A model generated the notes under the pieces. The model searched no databases. It worked only from the letters and a program-made list of their open reading frames with translations, and had not been told where the DNA came from. 64,000 nt of DNA from Eledone cirrhosa (lineage: Eukaryota), in the NCBI GenBank assembly GCA_964016885.1, contig OZ024740.1, positions 86,862,001 through 86,926,000 of the forward strand, given 5' to 3'. Below are positions 1 through 40,972 of this stretch, piece after piece. The translations under genes and the position numbers were made by a program. Positions within the stretch are counted from its first letter, which is position 1. Each line of letters opens with the position of its first letter.

Positions 1-1400
1 TTCTTCACGGGGAAGGGATTTAGTGTTTACAACAGACACTTTGCCCCGTCTTCCAGTAAGGATATAATCTATCTGGCTGGCGTGTTCCCCTGATCTGTAG
101 GTGATCAAGTGGTTTTCACGTTTTTTGAAGCTTGTGTTACAGATAGTTAGGCTATTTGCGTCACAGAATTCCAGGATTCTGAAGCCCTCCTCATTTCTAT
201 TTCCAACCCCATAGCCTCCATGGATTCCATCATAGCCATCACTAAGTTGTCCAACGTGATCGTTTAGATCGCCAGCAATAATTAAGTAGTCGCTGTCGGT
301 TATTTGGGAGGTATTGTGCATTAGCATCTCATAGAACCTGTCCTTTATAACATCAGGTAGACCAGATTGGGGTGCATAAGCGGATATTATTGTCACAGTA
401 GTTCTATTTAGAACTAGTCTTAATTTAATTATTCTGTCATTCACTCTATTTACGTCAATTACCTTATCTACCCATTTTTCAGCTAACATAATTCCTACAC
501 CACCCTATCCGTTGTCATCTCCCACCCAGAAAAGTTTATAGCATCGTTTTTTACCCACGATGAATCTGGCAGACCCCCCTCTCCACCTAGTCTCTTGAAT
601 ACAACAAACATCAACTTATTTACGTTCAAGCATCTCTACAACCTCATTTGAGCAACCTTTCAATGTTCCTACGTTCATGGTACCAACTCTGAAGTTGGGA
701 GGGTGGGACCTACGTTCATGGTACCAACTCTGAAGTTGGGAGGGTGGGATGGATGGGTTGGATGGGCAGGGAGGGGTGTGGGAGACGGAATTGTGTTGGT
801 CATCCGTATCTGAAATAAAGAGGGGTCCTTGTATTCTCGTCTGGCAGCGGGAAGTGAATTTATCTTTATCTGTGACATTGTCATTGAGTGCTTATACTTT
901 CCAAATTTCAGCAGTCAACCCATCAAACAGGTCTAAACTTAAGGAGTAGTAACCGGGGTGGTAGCTTTGCTATACTGATTTGTTAGAGAACTTACTAAAG
1001 CCGCTGAGTTATGATTGGACCATATAGCAATGGTGGGGGGTGGGGGGTAACTTTAGGAGAAGGTTAGTTTTTAGGAAGGGTCCAACAGATTGAGACATAT
1101 TATTAAAAACATGTAAAATAATAATTGAAAATCCGGGAGGAAAACGGAGAATTTGAATTTTAGACTGGCATAAATAGGAGTTTAAAACACTGCTTATTGA
1201 GAAGAATACTGATAAAAGAAAAGACAAATATTGCTTACATTCTCAAAATCGACAGATCGCCCGTAAGGTAGATTATATAGATAAATTCTGTCCTTGGGAA
1301 CCAGCAAGATTTATTTTATACTTGCGATCAGGCGGAGGGGTGGTATGAGAGAAGGAGAAAAGTGTTTACAAAGTTTGCGAGCGAGATGCAGGAAGGTTCA
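1..1400 (-). mobile_element. 5' part of an RTE-clade LINE: 5'UTR plus degenerate APE endonuclease coding region, runs off the window start
   Basis: Minus-strand translation of ~1-750 gives APE motifs: GTMNVGTL, VDVCCIQETRWRG, GGVGIML, IISAYAPQ, IIAGDLNDHVG, QIDYIL. In-frame stops and frameshifts are present. The 5' boundary is approximate. Confidence 0.88.
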
Positions 1401-1549
1401 TATATATATTTTTTCCTCCGCCTCTATCTTTACACTCGGCCCTTGAAAAAATTGATTCCACTTCATTTACTCTCATCTCGGGAACAATTTTGAATAGCGC
1501 CAGTTCGTAATTTGAATTCGGGAATTTTATATTCTTCGAATGAAAAGAT

Positions 1550-1631
1550 CCTTCTGACGAGAGTTTTTCTTTGCAACGGATGCCGTATGGACTCCGTTTA
1601 TTTTTGAGACTCGAAACCGATTCGGTAAAGG
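1550..1631 (+). ncRNA. Type I hammerhead ribozyme with an extended stem II
   Basis: cctt-CTGACGA-gagtttt..aacgga..tccgtt..gagactc-GAAA-ccga-t-tcgg-TA-aagg. The canonical core is present, stems I, II and III all pair, and the cleavage triplet is GUA. Confidence 0.8.
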
Positions 1632-1700
1632 TAACGATAGTAAGTAAAGTTAATTTTTTTTTATTTATTTTGAAACTTTTTCTTATTTGCTAAACCTTGA

Positions 1701-1749
<49 letters not shown>

Positions 1750-1808
1750 TATGCATACGTAAATGCATATACATATACATATGTACGTATGGGTTACATC
1801 GAACATTA

Positions 1809-1996
1809 ATAATTGGTTCTACTTTTGGCACAAGGCCAGCAATTACCCAGTGTATTACTGGTACTTTATTTTATCGACCCCATAAGGATGAAAGGCAAAG
1901 TTAACCTCGGCGGGATTTGAACTCAGAATGGAAAGGGCCGTAACTCTTTGCGTCAAAGCATGGCGTCCGACCCTCTACCGATACTGCCAATCCACC
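1809..1996 (-). mobile_element. tRNA-derived SINE, family A
   Basis: A-box-like TGGCAGTATCGGTAG and B-box GAGTTCAAATCCC, then central GCCTTTCATCCTTATGGGGTCGATAAAAT. There are many homologous copies in the window. Confidence 0.85.
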
Positions 1997-2519
1997 ATAA
2001 TGTTTGATTCGTTTGTAAACAAACGGCCCGATATATGTATATATGTGGGTGTGTAGATGTGGATATGTGTGTGTTATGGGGTATATTTCAATATATGACA
2101 TCTTATAACATTTCCATCCACTGTTACATGCATTGTGATACTAAAAGTAAAAGTAAATCTGGTAAGAGACTGGAAATGACAGTATTGTTGATCAAATAAA
2201 GACAATATGAGGTTTGAGACAACTTTTCAGTATTGACGAACAACTGACAACCTCTCATCTATTAGTGTCATTATAAAACACACCCAAAAATGCACCCAGT
2301 AAACCATGTAAGGTGGCTGATATGAGGAAGAGCTTCCACCCATAGAAACCATGCCAAAAATGGAATGTATGACAAGATGAGGTTGCTTTGACCCATCTGG
2401 TCATGACAACCTGTCCAAAAATGACAACGATGTATACATATACGTATATACATATATATATGTGTGTCTGTATGTGTGTGTGTGTGTGTGTGTAAGTATG
2501 TATGTATATATATATAAAA

Positions 2520-4068
2520 TAAAATGCATTATTTATGTTCATACACAGAAAAAAGGCGCTACTCAGGTTTAGAAGGCGACGGCCTACTACCAGCGCCTTC
2601 CAACCAACATCTTCGTGTACATAAACATGGAAGAGGTAGGAAGAGTGCACCCGAGCATAAAGTGAAAGGGGCACCGAACGGGCGACTGCGCATTAACACA
2701 CATAAGAGTGGTCACCTAGATAGAACCACCCGTAGCAAAAGTACAAGGACACGTAATCGCCACCGTAACGTCCTATGGTTCCCCCCCCCCTACTCTCGGA
2801 GTGTGGCCTCCAACATACCCCGGATATTCTTCGAAGCTTTACAGAAGAACTTCCCGCCCAACCATAGGTATAGAAAAATTCTTAATAGGAACAATATAAA
2901 AATATCTCCTAACCTAGCAGACATCATAGGAACAACGAACCACAGTAAGATCACCAAGACACAGCACCTCGACACAGACGCACCTACACCTGACAATAAC
3001 TATATCGGCCTTAACAACTCCCTGGAAGCATCCAATAGTGTTGGCAACGGCATCCGCAGACGCAACCAGCATAACCGCGAAATGACTGGAGACCATGCAG
3101 GACATGACGTGCGGAATAACAATCGCACATCCCCGCGTGCTGTGGGTTGTAATGGTGCTAACGACAGCTGCGGTAGCGTAGGTAACAACGTAGGCAGCAA
3201 CAATGATAGCCTTACCGTGGGAAATAGACGGAACCGCGACAGAAATTGCAACTGCCGCGACAGAGGACGCTGCCCCCTTAGAGGATACTGCTTGACTGAT
3301 AGGGTTATATATAGATGCACTATTACCAGCCACAATAGCGTTAAACATTATATAGGGGCTACCTCCGGCCCGTTCAAAATTAGGTTTCGAACACACCTCC
3401 ACTCTTTCACAAATAGAAAACTAAGGCACTCCACTTCGCTCGCGGACTACATCACATCACTAAAGGACTTAAATATCAGCTTCTCCACGCACTGGGAGAT
3501 TGTCGGCAGGGCTGCACCGTACAACTTCAAGAGGAAATGCGATCTTTGCCTCATGGAGCTCTACCACATCATAACTGCACCCCAAGAGCTCATCAACAGC
3601 AGAGCTGAAACAGCGATAAGTTGTACACATCGCTTAAAAATATCCTTCTTCAGATGTGTTAAGGATGAGGAGTGAAACCGTACACCGGATCTCCCTGCAA
3701 CGAGTCTTAACACCCCGGCGGGCAGGCGCTGCAAAATAACACCCAGGAAACAATCCTTGCGTACCAGACCCAGCCTCAGACAAACGGTTGCGGTAAGAAA
3801 AAAAAAGAAAGAAAAATTGTCCGGGGAAGGACTGCCCTAACACCGGCCAGAGTTACCTCCCTTGATCTGCTGCAAAATCAAAACAAGATATTTCTGCGAG
3901 CAATGAACCTTGATGTGGATTTAACCCCAAAAACTCTTTCCGAGCAATATAAGGAACACTTGTGATTATTGATGCCCTTGAGAAGTCCAACTGGTCGAAA
4001 CGTACGTAGGTGCTGTTTTAAATAAACATGTTTTAACGGTCTATTCTCCGATTTTATACTTTCCCACG
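2520..4068 (+). mobile_element. 5'-truncated Penelope-like retroelement flanked by microsatellites
   Basis: The ORF above, plus a 3' region with an HHR-like motif (3974-4013) and AATAAA (4021). It is bounded by (TG/TA)n on the left and (TA)n on the right. Confidence 0.8.
2524..3675 (+). CDS. C-terminal part of a Penelope-like element ORF (linker plus GIY-YIG endonuclease); no RT catalytic domain in this copy
   Basis: 383-aa ORF with WFPPPYSRSVASNI..FPPNHRYRKILNRNNIKIS, CNC..CPLRGYCL, VIY..YIG..FKIRFRTH and CDLCLMEL, typical of the PLE RT-distal/GIY-YIG region. Confidence 0.85.
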   Translation: MHYLCSYTEKRRYSGLEGDGLLPAPSNQHLRVHKHGRGRKSAPEHKVKGAPNGRLRINTHKSGHLDRTTRSKSTRTRNRHRNVLWFPPPYSRSVASNIPRIFFEALQKNFPPNHRYRKILNRNNIKISPNLADIIGTTNHSKITKTQHLDTDAPTPDNNYIGLNNSLEASNSVGNGIRRRNQHNREMTGDHAGHDVRNNNRTSPRAVGCNGANDSCGSVGNNVGSNNDSLTVGNRRNRDRNCNCRDRGRCPLRGYCLTDRVIYRCTITSHNSVKHYIGATSGPFKIRFRTHLHSFTNRKLRHSTSLADYITSLKDLNISFSTHWEIVGRAAPYNFKRKCDLCLMELYHIITAPQELINSRAETAISCTHRLKISFFRCVKDEE

Positions 4069-10870: not shown

Positions 10871-13859
10871 CTTACCTACAAATGCTATTTCTACAGCTAT
10901 TTCTACGTAGTTAACAGTTGTGTATTGGCAGCATGACTAATTTAAGCAGAATCCAATGAAAGACAATGAACATGAATCTGATATCTCTAATACATCTCTA
11001 TATTTAGAGATTCCTTGCACAGCAAACATGTAACTTCCATAGAGCTTAGTCTACTAATTTTTTTTTTTGTTTGTTTTCATGTTGGGTTTAATGAAAATGT
11101 ATTTAAGATTATTATAGTTATTATCATAGGACAAAACTTTTATATTTATCTGAAGGTGAAGGATTGTCAGAATCATTAGTAAGGTATTTGTATAGGATTT
11201 TTTGGAGTTCAAATCCTACCACAGTAAATTAGTCATTCATCCATATGGGGTTTGGAAAATAAAGTACCACTCTGGTACTAGGTTGATATAATTGACTATT
11301 CTTCCCCTAACCACAAACAACAACACTCCCAAAAATGCTTGCCTTCAGCCTAACTTTTTCATCTGCTTCAATGGAACTCAACCCACATGTAGAGTGTGCT
11401 GCATAGGCTTCCTTCAGAGGACGAGTGTCTCAGGATAATTTTCATAATTATTTTAAATTCGAAGGCGCTGTTTTTCATTTGAAATATGGTGATGAAAGGG
11501 TTAAAAAACACAATGTATTTCTTGGAGATATATTGAAATACAGATTTAGTGACAAGGTCGTAGTTTCATGCCAAATGACTTTAATACTTAATAATTGTTT
11601 CTACTTTAGGCACAAGGCCAGCAATTACCCAGTGCATTACTGGTACTTTGTTTTATCGACCCCGTAAGGATGAAAGGCAAAGTCAACCTCGGCGGGATTG
11701 ACTTTGCCTTTGATACTTAATAATATGAGTGAGACATGATCCTTCAACCTGTCTAGAATGTCAGTAACTCTGAAAAAGAATTGACTATGTCTATAACGAC
11801 CTATCCAATCGATGCCAGCACATGTTAAGTGAGGATGATTTTGATAATCATAAGGAAATATTATGGCATGTGTGTTTTAACCCTTTCATGCCACATGTTT
11901 AGTGCATGACACTGCCAAACAATTTTTATATAATCAAGCATATGGATGAATTCATAATACAACTAATTTTCTCTATCAACACTTTAAAAAAACCAGAAGC
12001 AGTTTCAGGAGGTTTGGTATAAAAAAAAAGGTTAAATGGCTATCATGGCTATCAGTGCAGCTTAAAAGATCTCGCAGAATTTAATAATAATGCAAAGGAC
12101 TGTGTAAAGAAATGGGAAACTGTCATCTAATCATATGCTTCGAAGATACAAAAAGACGAATGGCTATTACAGTACAATACCATTGTCGTCGTTATCATTG
12201 TTATTATCATCCTCACCATCATTATCATCTTAATCATTGTTGTCATCATAAAACATTATCATTGTCATCGTCAAACATCGTCATTGTTATCGTCACCATC
12301 GACGTCATACTCATCATCATCATCATTTGTTTCATCTGTTTCAACACTACATTCTTCCATTTGTTGGATCTTCAGCTCCTCTGTGATATTTGGTATCCTG
12401 ACATCAATCCTTCCCAACTCTCTCCACCATCTTCAATGGTCTTCTACTTGCACACCATTCAAACACGTATGTTTATACCAGTAAAGACACAGTCATTATA
12501 TATAGTAGATTGGCAGAGTTGTTAGAGCAGAGGACAATATACTTTGTAATATTTCTTCTTACACCAGGGTCAACTTTGACTTTCATCCTTTTTGGGATAA
12601 TGAAATAAAGACCAATCTGGGGTGGTAGATTAGTGTCAGACAGGATAGCTTGTGGAACTTGGCTTGGCTCTTTACATTCTCAGTTAAAATCCCTCTGTAT
12701 CCTATTTGAGCAGTAGACTTAATTTCTTGTGCAGTTTCATATAATCACTTTGTCCTTTAGTGCTTTTAATGGAGTTCACTCTAGTGCAAGCACTTGGGCC
12801 AGTTCTTCAATTTGAGGATGCCACATCTGGTATACTATTCTCGGAGTCCCTAAAAATAGTCATGAGCACTGTCTTTATGTCAATGGCTTAGCAATAAAAA
12901 CACTACTGTTGATACTTCTAGTATCCACTTTTTATCTCAGCACACTTGTGCTCCATCATTCATCTACTACTGACATTGAACAGCTGGTGAAGCAAGTTCA
13001 CTTCATTTCTTCACACTTCTTATATTTCTTTCTTGATTATGTATCTATGTATGGACATGTAACCCCTGCTAGAGTCGTATGGGTGCCATAATGACATATG
13101 GAATTTTTGGGGCATTTGTAAAACCTGACAGAGCCCATCATTCTCCAGCCGATTTCATCTAGAGAAGGAGAGAAAGAGAGAGAAAGTGTGATAGGGAGGA
13201 ATTGAGAAATATATATAAAGGAAGGATCAACCCCAGGACTGCACTGGTACTATTTTTATTGATCTCGAAAGGATAAAAGTCAAAGCTGACCCCAGCAGTA
13301 TTTGAACTCAGAGTTCAGTGAGTCAGAATGTACACCACAAAACATTGTATCTCATGTTTTAAAAACTCTGCCAATTTGCCACCTATTTTCTTGATAGTCT
13401 ATCACAAGCCCAAAGGCTCACCAAGCCAGTGATTATCCTAGTTTCCATGGCATAAAGTGACTGAGTGTACAAGACTTCCCCTGAACAGTATACCTGTTCA
13501 TCACAAGGTTAAATCCCTCCTCCATCCAGCTATTGCTGCCATTCATTTCAGCTGAGTATACAATGTGAAATGAAGTGTTTTGCTATTTTCTTGATAATAC
13601 ATTCTAATTAACAAGGAGGAAAGTATAGCAGAGTTGGTTCAGAAGTTGATCTCACAATCACAAGTACCTGAGTTCATTCTCTTTGTAGCTATGGTAAAAG
13701 ACAAATGTCTGTTACCATAGCTACAGCTTGACATGAGCCTTGTCAATGAAATTGGGTAGGCAGACTGTATGGAAGCTTGTTAGGTAGACTGTACCTGTTG
13801 ATTCAAATTGTCACACAGTATGATATGCCAACTCTACTATAGAATTATATTATTGGGGC

Positions 13860-14370
13860 ACATCCTATCCTATCCTCAGTCGTCCAGTGGGATGCTCCAC
13901 TGATTCCACACGTGCTTCCATTCATCCCCATCTTTCACGATGGTCTGGAGCTCCTCTACTGTCTTTATCTATGTGTCTTCTAGCAGAGTGTCCATGTAGG
14001 TGATTTTTCTCCATCCTCTATACACTCTTCCCTAATTAGTTTGCCAAAGCACTAACTGGTTTGCCACCTCATCATTGTCTGGTGTGGTGGCCTGCAAATC
14101 ACATTGTTCTTTGTTGAATTTTTAATGAAACTTTTGGAAGATCATCATAAAGTTCTGCATTTGTTACATGGCTTCTCCATGACACATTAAGTGCCATTCT
14201 AAGCATTCTTGTGTAACAGCCATCTAATTGGTTTTTTGAAGGCTTTTTATAAATGTCCATGTCTCTGCTTCATAAAGAAAACAGATTCTACTGTAGCTAT
14301 GAACAATTTAACCTTCAGTCTTCTTGACTGCTTGGAGTTCCATAGCTGTTTTAGTTTATGGCACGCTGTC
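13860..14370 (-). mobile_element. Degenerate RTE-type LINE RT C-terminal fragment
   Basis: Minus-strand RMLRMALNVSWRSHVTN..FAGH..QLVLWQ..TYMDTLLED-like residues, with stops and frameshifts. Confidence 0.6.
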
Positions 14371-16438: not shown

Positions 16439-17408
16439 AATGGAAAAAATGAAATTTCATTTCTCACTCTTAGTATGGCCGATACCTAAATGTAAGTATG
16501 TACAAGTACATACATATATGTATACAGACGTATATATATACATACATGCACACATATATATATGTATGGGTTTACTGAACATTCATCATAATGTTCGGTT
16601 TGTTTGTAAACAAACAGCCCGAATTAAGCTGTACAGTGTTCGACAACCATCGTTGCCCTTTTGTTCAACACTGACAAAGGAAAAATGAACTAGTTTCTAG
16701 CTTATTAGCTGTCATCAGCACCGTATACCTTCCTGTCCGTCGATTGAATGTTTGAAAGTATATACTTTCCCTATGCATATTAACGGCTGAGCAGCCTAAT
16801 TTACATATCAAGTGAGTTAGTCGGCCGGGCGTACCGAAAACGATAAATGGAAAAAATGAAATTTCATTTCTCACTCTTAGTATGGCTGATACTTAAATGT
16901 AAGTATGTACACCTACATACATATATGTATACAGACGTACAGTAGTATGTATATACATACATACATGCACATATATATATATATGTACGTATGGGTTTAC
17001 CGAACATTCATCATAATGTTCGGTTTATTTGTAAACAAACAGCCCGATTTAAGCCGACTAACTAACTCGATACGCAAATTAGGCTGCTCAGCCGTTAATA
17101 TGCATAGGGAAAGTATATACTTTCAAACGTTCAATCGACTGACAGGAAGGTATACAGTGCTGATGACAGCTAATAAGCTAGAAACTAGTTTATCTTTCCT
17201 TTGTCAGTGTTGAACAAAAGGGCAACGATGGTTGCTAAACACTGTACGGCTTAATTCGGGATGTTTGTTTACAAACAAACCGCACATTATAATAAATGTT
17301 CGGTAAACCCATACGTACATATATATATATGTGTGCATGTATGTATGTATATACATACTACTGTACGTCTGTATACATATATGTATGTACGTGTACATAC
17401 TTACATTT
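16438..17408. repeat. Composite direct/inverted repeat A-B-A-B'-A' (unit ~407 bp)
   Basis: A starts recur at 16438 and 16845. B (16621-16825) is inverted at 17052-17260, followed by an inverted A to ~17408. Confidence 0.85.
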
Positions 17409-40637: not shown

Positions 40638-40972
40638 GCACATGGCTTAGTGGTTAGAGCATTGGCCTTGCAATCAAAAGGTTGTGAGTTCAATTCTCAG
40701 ACTGGGTGATGTGTTGTTTCCTTGAGCAAGACACTTTATTTCACATTGCTCCAGTTTACTCAGCTGTAGAAATGAGGTGATAGGGACTGGGGTCCATATC
40801 ATACCACTGCAAAGTGGTCGTGGAGGTGCCACGGCAATAAAGCACCCAGCACTCACTGTAAATGAGGTTGGTGTTAGGAAGGGCATCCAGCTGTAGAAAT
40901 CAAGTCAGCATCAGTTCCCGTCCCACCCTTGCAAGCAGGGAAAAAGCGGACGTAAAATGAAATGATGATGAT
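40634..40972 (+). mobile_element. SINE family B, full length, in (TA)n
   Basis: Near-identical to 6853-7194. Confidence 0.9.

What the first reader, a model, noticed from the sequence alone, without database searches (positions are those of the whole stretch)
1410..1702. Third, unrelated hammerhead in a ~290-bp island between TA tracts
Canonical CUGACGA/GAAA/GUA core at 1550-1631 with a 4-bp stem I, a near-palindromic stem III (accgattcggt) and an unusually long stem II (gagtttt/gagactc plus an inner aacgga/tccgtt helix). The host segment lies between (TA)n runs and shows no similarity to the 34/40 kb family, so it is a second HHR-bearing family (solo PLE pLTR or another retrozyme).
Basis: partly seen in the sequence, partly recalled or inferred. 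Interest (0 to 1): 0.7.

Follow-up and report, generated by a model that had tools for sequence, protein, structure and literature searches.

The report
Long-armed hammerhead in Penelope-type repeat
This is one truncated copy of an abundant animal repeat that carries a complete "hammerhead" self-cutting RNA motif with an unusually long side arm; it was likely spread by Penelope-type jumping-gene enzymes, a known association, and cutting has not been tested.

Summary
The motif is real: a complete type I hammerhead at 1550-1631 (+), predicted cut after 1627, with a 52-nt stem II. Laid reads show that 1415-1701 is one 5'-truncated, diverged copy of a high-copy repeat joined to (TA)n. It is unrelated to the 34/40 kb family and to the Penelope fragment 0.8 kb downstream. 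Other copies vary mostly in stem II and add a fifth stem I pair, and some carry a perfectly palindromic stem III. The layout matches hammerheads of Hydra-clade Penelope-like elements (PLEs), except that stem II is twice as long. A plant PLE has a comparable arm. Best reading: 3' end of a PLE-mobilised, probably non-autonomous (retrozyme-like) element. An autonomous PLE end is not excluded, because tandem arrangement and an attached ORF could not be tested. In folding predictions this copy rarely adopts the active fold in context. Leads: a possible stem I-stem II pseudoknot and a 3' hairpin that competes for stem I. It is not the 'third' hammerhead: the window holds at least six motifs in four families. 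The scan already noted long-stem-II hammerheads elsewhere in this genome and another. New member of a known kind.

The parts
1400..1409 (.). Short (AT)5 run left of the element, likely part of the target site
   Evidence: Sequence; too short for Tandem Repeats Finder
1415..1701 (+). One 5'-truncated copy of a high-copy non-coding repeat (287 bp)
   Evidence: summed depth rises from 329 (1401-1420) to 5,959 (1421-1440) and 69,194 (1521-1540); 139 reads and 7 contigs run on before 1415 into other, shared sequence; 3 contigs go on into TA behind 1699
1550..1631 (+). Type I hammerhead motif, predicted cut between 1627 and 1628 (GUA)
   Evidence: Descriptor search, shuffle control, folding
1550..1553 (+). 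Stem I 5' strand, pairing with 1628-1631; most other copies have A at 1549, which adds a fifth pair with 1632
   Evidence: A at 1549 in 79% of X1 depth and 518 of 758 X6 reads
1554..1560 (+). Catalytic core CUGACGA (C3-A9)
   Evidence: Sequence
1561..1612 (+). 52-nt stem II: 7-bp base, 7x7 internal loop, 6-bp inner helix, 2-bp tip hairpin
   Evidence: Mean pair probabilities 0.86-0.95, 0.96-0.97 and 0.99 in four of five contexts (basal stem 0.22, inner 0.87, tip 0.98 in the fifth); most variable part of the motif
1613..1627 (+). GAAA core, near-palindromic stem III (1616-1626) and cleavage nucleotide 1627
   Evidence: Hairpin -2.0 versus self-duplex -14.3 kcal/mol; one base missing at 1621 in 179 of 584 X6 reads makes a perfect palindrome
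1541..1575 (+). Candidate pseudoknot: 1541-1548 pairs with internal-loop strand 1568-1575 (5 contiguous pairs, one mismatch, 2 more pairs)
   Evidence: weak statistics (2.6% of random 7-mers, 11.5% of shuffles); mismatch position is pairable in a diverged subfamily seen as a loose end
1628..1698 (+). Predicted 3'-terminal hairpin; 1628-1632 pairs with 1694-1698 and competes with stem I
   Evidence: Pair probability 0.53-0.87 in transcripts ending at 1701, 0.93 in the 3' product
1702..1747 (.). (TA)23 run at the element's 3' end

Best explanation
The island is one 5'-truncated copy (1415-1701) of a high-copy repeat with a complete type I hammerhead motif 74 bases before its (TA)n-joined end, likely a protein-free element copied by the enzymes of a Penelope-like (probably Hydra-clade) retrotransposon, whose RNA is predicted to cut itself after 1627. 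Inferred mechanism: a PLE endonuclease nicks (TA)n DNA, the PLE reverse transcriptase starts on the element RNA near the base now at 1701 and copies leftward, and for this copy it stopped at 1415. In full-length source copies the hammerhead would cut multimeric transcripts into units, most efficiently as a dimer through the palindromic stem III. The long stem II is an elaboration built on an ordinary 6-7-bp stem II. This copy has lost a stem I pair and rarely reaches the active fold in predictions, so it is probably a weak or dead remnant. Shown: the motif, high copy number, edges, (TA)n end and independence from the other families. Inferred: the PLE partner, non-autonomy, cleavage and dimer use.
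For: Multi-copy: 864 contigs (X1) and 1,650 reads (X6) laid, most under 95% identical; summed depth up to 69,194 over the motif's flank against 5.7-30.6 for single listed contigs (not a copy number). Depth climbs stepwise from 1415 towards the 3' end, as 5' truncation would give. Of the 40 substitution rows shown (of 151), 7 fall in stem II and none in the core, stem I or stem III. Changes that keep or add pairs: 1549 (fifth stem I pair), 1565 (G-U to G-C), 1577 (G-C to G-U); 1563 A in 281 of 653 reads with T at 1610 in a 133-read loose end (unphased); the 1621 deletion gives a perfect palindrome. Published Hydra-clade hammerheads have the same short stem I, 3-4-bp stem III with a 1-3-nt loop, mostly 3'-terminal position and (TA)n preference (PMC8557442 Files S1-S2). 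A Hydra-like PLE fragment lies in the same window. No ORF in the island. Animal retrozymes are reported as non-autonomous PLE derivatives (bioRxiv 10.64898/2026.07.22.740005).
Against: No link to any PLE ORF was shown, and the island does not resemble the neighbouring PLE's own 3' end (61 of 300 shuffles score as well). No tandem joint was seen apart from one 49-base local duplication in one contig, though the stretch laid could not reveal a monomer longer than itself. 140 non-coding bases upstream of the motif would also fit an autonomous element's 3' UTR (about 300 bases in the neighbouring PLE). 111 substitution rows were not shown, so core invariance is not established. G-to-A at 1579 (298 of 560 reads) and T-to-A at 1567 break predicted stem II pairs unless partners change, which was not seen in the rows shown. 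The depth ramp could reflect subfamily divergence instead of truncation. The active fold has probability 0.16 in isolation but 0.0001-0.0006 with the upstream flank from 1415 (pseudoknots and dimers not modelled). In an anole PLE, hammerhead cutting was not needed for insertion in vitro (PMC11167929).
Confidence: 0.55

Rival explanations
1. The island is the leftover 3' end (solo pseudo-LTR) of an autonomous Hydra-clade Penelope-like element whose ORF was lost by 5' truncation; same mechanism, but the source element encodes its own enzyme.
For: Hammerhead layout, 3' position and (TA)n target match autonomous Hydra elements. Most PLE hammerheads occur as dispersed single motifs from truncated elements (PMC4209133). 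Depth falls about tenfold within 130 bases upstream of the motif, with no sign of tandem units.
Against: No ORF link seen; the only PLE ORF nearby has a different 3' end. No motif match in the published Naiad/Chlamys/Hydra supplement (4 motif terms, 0 hits).
Confidence: 0.3
2. A hammerhead-bearing repeat spread by another route (a LINE enzyme, or DNA-level satellite amplification), with the (TA)n end coming from the genome's abundance of microsatellites.
For: TA tracts are very common in this window. A LINE fragment lies at 1-891. What follows 1701 in other copies rests on only 3 contigs.
Against: No poly(A) tail or target-site duplication is visible. The motif type is the one described for PLEs. 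The other hammerhead families of the window also end in TA-rich tracts.
Confidence: 0.1
3. A chance match to the hammerhead consensus inside an ordinary repeat, with no catalytic history.
For: Folding energy is not better than shuffles; no Rfam hit; a loose descriptor hits 10 of 300 shuffled windows; the active fold is disfavoured in context.
Against: 0 of 300 shuffles reach the observed stems. Family variants add a stem I pair, perfect the stem III palindrome and cluster in stem II.
Confidence: 0.04

Closest known systems
Hammerheads of Hydra-clade Penelope-like elements (Craig et al. 2021, PMC8557442; passages, section 11 and supplement part 2 of 59 read)
   Same: Type I; stem I 3-7 bp (one longer, bulged); stem III of 3-4 pairs with a 1-3-nt loop; near the 3' end in most rows; (TA)n target; GNRA loop on stem II in 5 of 26 rows, and a GNRA tip is seen in one diverged subfamily here.
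   Different: Stem II spans 52 nt against 12-26 nt (my count of the 26 Hydra rows). No ORF link shown. No sequence match in that supplement.
Metazoan non-LTR retrozymes (Cervera and de la Pena 2020, PMC7229834, passages and section 14; Li, Clavereau and Pollet 2026, bioRxiv 10.64898/2026.07.22.740005, abstract, section 5 and part 1 of 2 of Results)
   Same: Non-coding, AT-rich, high-copy repeat with a type I hammerhead; monomeric remnants are common in such families.
   Different: Tandem units and circular RNA not shown here; stem I is shorter and stem II much longer than the canonical 6 and 4 bp.
Minimal PLE hammerheads (Cervera and de la Pena 2014, PMC4209133, parts 1-2 of 4 read)
   Same: Helix I 4-5 bp, helix II 7-8 bp, G10.1-C11.1 pair, palindromic helix III suited to dimer folding.
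   Different: No extra nucleotide between A9 and G10.1; a real 4-bp helix III; helix II extended by a second helix.
PLE-X1_sMoe hammerhead of Selaginella (File S2 of PMC8557442)
   Same: PLE hammerhead with a 9-bp stem II and 35-nt loop, about the same arm length.
   Different: Plant, endonuclease-less, rDNA-targeted element; unrelated sequence; tiny stem III.
Pseudoknotted hammerheads (Perreault et al. 2011, PMC3088659; passages and section 7 read)
   Same: A base-paired stem I-stem II contact is predicted for about 40% of hammerheads, in all three types.
   Different: Here the partner would be an internal-loop strand inside a long arm; only weakly supported.

Membership tests
Type I hammerhead ribozyme | CUGAnGA, GAAA and NUH core in order, enclosed by three stems, stem I open | tested here: met
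Type I hammerhead ribozyme | Core conserved and stems covarying across copies | tested here: inconclusive
   no core row among 40 shown of 151; several pair-keeping changes, two pair-breaking ones; changes not phased
Type I hammerhead ribozyme | Site-specific self-cleavage | not testable with these tools
   Needs a bench assay
Type I hammerhead ribozyme | Stem I-stem II tertiary contact | tested here: inconclusive
   Candidate pseudoknot, 2.6-11.5% by chance
PLE-type (dimer-forming) hammerhead | Short stem I, 7-8-bp stem II base, palindromic stem III | tested here: met
   compared with PMC4209133
Hydra-clade PLE terminus | Hammerhead near a 3' end joined to (TA)n | tested here: met
   74 bases from cut site to (TA)23; 3 contigs also end in TA
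Hydra-clade PLE terminus | Attached ORF with RT and C-terminal GIY-YIG endonuclease | not testable with these tools
   No genome held; reads reveal only 30 letters upstream of 1415; the neighbouring ORF belongs to another family
Hydra-clade PLE terminus | Tandem or inverted pseudo-LTRs and a one-sided 30-40-bp tail | tested here: inconclusive
   This locus has one arm only; other loci could not be read
Non-LTR retrozyme | Tandem non-coding monomers, each with a hammerhead | tested here: inconclusive
   Single copy here; no monomer joint within 1101-1700, but a longer monomer would not show
Non-LTR retrozyme | No protein-coding frame | tested here: met
   For the 287 bases present only: the one open stretch over 80 codons is antisense and has no recognisable content by eye
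Non-LTR retrozyme | Circular RNA intermediate | not testable with these tools
   No RNA run could be laid

The most novel reading that the evidence does not exclude
The family carries a regulated hammerhead of a new build. The stem I-stem II contact is a pseudoknot made from an internal loop of the long arm (1541-1548 with 1568-1575), a GNRA-type hairpin is pushed out to the arm's tip as a free module, and a 3'-terminal hairpin (1628-1698) captures the 3' strand of stem I. That hairpin would switch cutting off once the RNA end is made and mark where the Penelope reverse transcriptase starts. This would tie ribozyme control directly to PLE priming.
Probability: 0.17. Interest if true: 0.6.

Novelty: new member of a known kind. 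Interest (0 to 1): 0.3.

Why it matters
As it stands it adds one more family to a known association between hammerheads and Penelope-type elements. Its practical point is that a 52-nt stem II escapes the Rfam models and the 7-17-nt spacer of a published core-motif search (PMC8557442), so such families are probably undercounted. If the pseudoknot and the competing 3' hairpin are real, the family gives a compact test of the open question of what hammerheads do for PLEs, since cutting was dispensable in the one in vitro system (PMC11167929).

Tried and rejected
Genome-wide search: no genome is held for this window. Run search: no RNA holder listed. Molecule ends in the RAD run X6 looked like fixed element ends, but 5 of the 6 shown sit exactly on AATT sites and the sixth within a base of one that variant copies gain; rejected as library cuts, together with the low-agreement loose ends at 1453, 1522-1523 and 1655. 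Island as 5' pseudo-LTR of the PLE at 2518-4068: rejected, no similarity to that element's 3' end. Left neighbour 1000-1405 as an inverted arm of the island: rejected (215 of 300 shuffles score as well). Motif scans of metagenome contigs and viral contigs: 0 loci. Genome contigs gave 2 bacterial matches without convincing stems I and II by eye, taken as chance. Look-ups of earlier scan notes by sequence or relatives: none. Rfam: only TA-repeat microRNA noise and weak snoRNA/lncRNA hits. Lunse et al. 2017 on dimeric PLE hammerheads is not held; I saw its title only. A second laying of reads over the motif and the 3' end was not obtained, so the full variant table of the core and what follows 1701 in other copies stay open. 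Supplements of the bioRxiv preprint could not be seen and may hold related consensus sequences.

Full report
Observation. On the + strand, 1550-1553 pairs with 1628-1631 (stem I), CUGACGA is at 1554-1560, stem II runs 1561-1612, GAAA is at 1613-1616, stem III is 1616-1626, and GUA at 1625-1627 predicts a cut between 1627 and 1628. A loose three-stem descriptor found 3 sites in the window (this one, 34.6 kb, 40.4 kb) and at least one site in 10 of 300 block-shuffled windows. With the observed stem lengths, chosen after the fact, 0 of 300 shuffles hit. Folding energy alone is unremarkable, and Rfam reports no hammerhead here. The island is not related to the 34/40 kb pair, to the 3' end of the Penelope fragment at 2518-4068, or to its left neighbour (nine comparisons, the best unrelated one reached by 2 of 300 shuffles and out of register). 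It is not the third hammerhead: motifs at about 3973-4011 and at 16.7/17.2 kb bring the window to at least six in four families.

What it is. No genome is held, so copy information comes from one laying of four public runs on 1101-1700 at 80% likeness (4 of the 8 runs listed). From organism A, 864 contigs (X1) and 1,650 RAD reads (X6) were laid, most under 95% identical. Summed X1 depth is 329 at 1401-1420, 5,959 at 1421-1440, and climbs to 69,194 at 1521-1540. It dips to 12,000-14,000 inside stem II, where copies diverge, and is 44,000-102,000 from 1601 to 1700. Single listed contigs have depth 5.7-30.6. This is no copy number, but it suggests thousands of copies. At 1415, 139 reads and 7 contigs run on into other, largely shared sequence, so this copy is cut short at its 5' side. 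Three contigs continue into TA behind 1699. The sharp molecule ends in X6 coincide with AATT sites (5 of 6 shown exactly) and are library cuts. Ten contigs under species label B and two under label C hold pieces, at low depth.

Variation. Of 151 substitution rows, 40 were shown. Seven lie in stem II and none in the core, stem I or stem III; the 111 hidden rows mean that invariance is not proven. A at 1549 (79% of X1 depth, 518 of 758 X6 reads) adds a fifth stem I pair that this copy lacks. Changes at 1565 and 1577 keep their pairs. A at 1563 (281 of 653 reads) has a fitting partner change at 1610 in a 133-read loose end, but the two are not phased. Loss of one base at 1621 (179 of 584 reads) turns stem III into a perfect palindrome. 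A diverged subfamily (6 contigs) keeps the inner helix and has a GNRA tip loop. Against: A at 1579 (298 of 560 reads) and A at 1567 break predicted pairs unless partners change, which the rows shown do not reveal.

How it likely works. Stem III is weak as a hairpin (-2.0 kcal/mol) and strong as a self-duplex (-14.3), the build described for dimer-acting PLE hammerheads (PMC4209133, parts 1-2 of 4 read). The 26 Hydra-clade rows of File S2 in PMC8557442 share the short stem I and the small stem III, and most lie near the 3' end; Hydra families prefer (TA)n. A Hydra-like element sits in this window. I therefore infer that a PLE endonuclease and reverse transcriptase inserted this copy into a TA tract, starting near 1701 and stopping at 1415. 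PLE mobilisation in either form I put at about 0.85. I favour a non-autonomous source (0.55) over an autonomous PLE end (0.30). This copy itself is probably weak: the active secondary structure has probability 0.16 alone, 0.002-0.16 with a start at 1545 depending on the 3' end, and 0.0001-0.0006 with a start at 1415 (pseudoknots and dimers not modelled). In the one PLE studied in vitro, cutting was real but not needed for insertion (PMC11167929, passages).

Two leads. First, the eight bases before stem I (1541-1548) are complementary to the 5' strand of the stem II internal loop (1568-1575): five contiguous pairs, a mismatch, two more pairs. The diverged subfamily has a pairable base at the mismatch, and none of these positions is among the variant rows shown. 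Chance is 2.6% for random 7-mers and 11.5% for shuffles, and 7 of 170 other island windows pair as well, so this is suggestive only. Such stem I-stem II pseudoknots are common in hammerheads generally (PMC3088659, passages and section 7). Second, 1628-1632 pairs with 1694-1698 at the very end of the element (probability 0.53-0.87; the 5-mer falls in the last 15 bases in 0.6% of shuffles, a test made after seeing it). This hairpin competes with stem I and could silence the ribozyme in finished RNA. Earlier notes describe 3' hairpins near the ends of Hydra-type elements (e1-8804881, e1-8671399); I did not check them.

Comparison and novelty. It works like a PLE or retrozyme type I hammerhead. 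Membership of either the autonomous PLEs or the retrozymes is unproven, because the ORF link, tandem units and circles could not be tested. The arm of 52 nt is twice the longest Hydra arm (12-26 nt, my count), but a Selaginella PLE has a 9-bp stem with a 35-nt loop, and the same paper mentions core halves 35-50 nt apart. Eight literature searches listed no paper on this family; most subscription papers are outside the library, Lunse et al. 2017 was not held, and preprint supplements were closed. PMC7229834 was read as passages and section 14, PMC10085705 as passages. That the host is a cephalopod is my recall of the repeat landscape plus first-reader titles in earlier notes, not a result of my calls. 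The scan has already noted long-stem-II hammerheads in this genome (e1-8664355, e1-9545524, e1-9560118) and in another (e1-8667016, e1-8666544).

Verdict. A real motif in a real, separate, high-copy family; a new member of a known kind; interest 0.3. The bolder reading (pseudoknotted long arm plus an off-switch hairpin at the priming end) has probability about 0.17 and would merit 0.6.

Noticed in passing
window 2518-4068 (+): 3' part of a Hydra-clade-like Penelope element: open frame with CxCX5C linker, HYIG, CxxC and CxH motifs, 32% identical over 302 alignment columns to a 698-aa relative. Its own 3' end carries a decayed hammerhead with a U3-A8-like core and palindromic stem III at about 3973-4011, then a TA-rich array from 4069.
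   Followed up: partly
window 16554-16825 and 17053-17324: Two-armed inverted repeat (272 nt, 93%), each arm with a minimal hammerhead-like motif (16674-16718 minus, 17160-17204 plus) that has a mismatch at the base of stem II and a palindromic stem III. A fourth hammerhead family in this window.
   Followed up: partly
window 1748-1815 and 1990-2035: Terminal piece of the 16.5/17 kb family, split by an insert of about 180 bp (SINE-like by recall), facing the same (TA)23 run from the right: elements of different families have piled into one TA tract.
   Followed up: partly
window 1101-1400: A separate multi-copy repeat (summed depth 230-5,238), unrelated to the island; possibly the 5' region of the minus-strand LINE whose endonuclease frame lies at 1-891 (Pfam PF14529 on 1-504, E 5e-5, below cut-off).
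   Followed up: partly
window 1415-1423 and 1330-1338: The first 9 bases of the island are an exact inverted match to the flank 77 bases upstream. At 1419 this copy has the base that makes the match perfect, whereas 99% of X1 depth and 140 of 153 X6 reads have another. May record template switching at the 5' junction.
   Followed up: no
window 1628-1645: Two splice-donor-like sites just after the cut site (GT at 1631 and GTAAGT at 1640-1645), followed by a pyrimidine-rich tail. An intron abuts hammerhead helix I in Drosophila Penelope (PMC4209133). Not tested.
   Followed up: no
window 1661-1700: The last 40 bases have the highest depth (82,000-102,000), and 9 contigs join them from a diverged upstream sequence: the extreme 3' end seems shared by related subfamilies, though low-complexity matches may add to it.
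   Followed up: partly
runs X4 and X5 (organisms B and C): Low-depth contigs (depth 2-6) with 64-148-base pieces about 84-93% identical to the island: the family, or its DNA, occurs under other species labels.
   Followed up: no
window 40641-40704 (+): tRNA-like Rfam hit just above threshold, probably a tRNA-derived SINE head.
   Followed up: no
window 668-749: Perfect 41-bp tandem duplication inside the LINE fragment.
   Followed up: no
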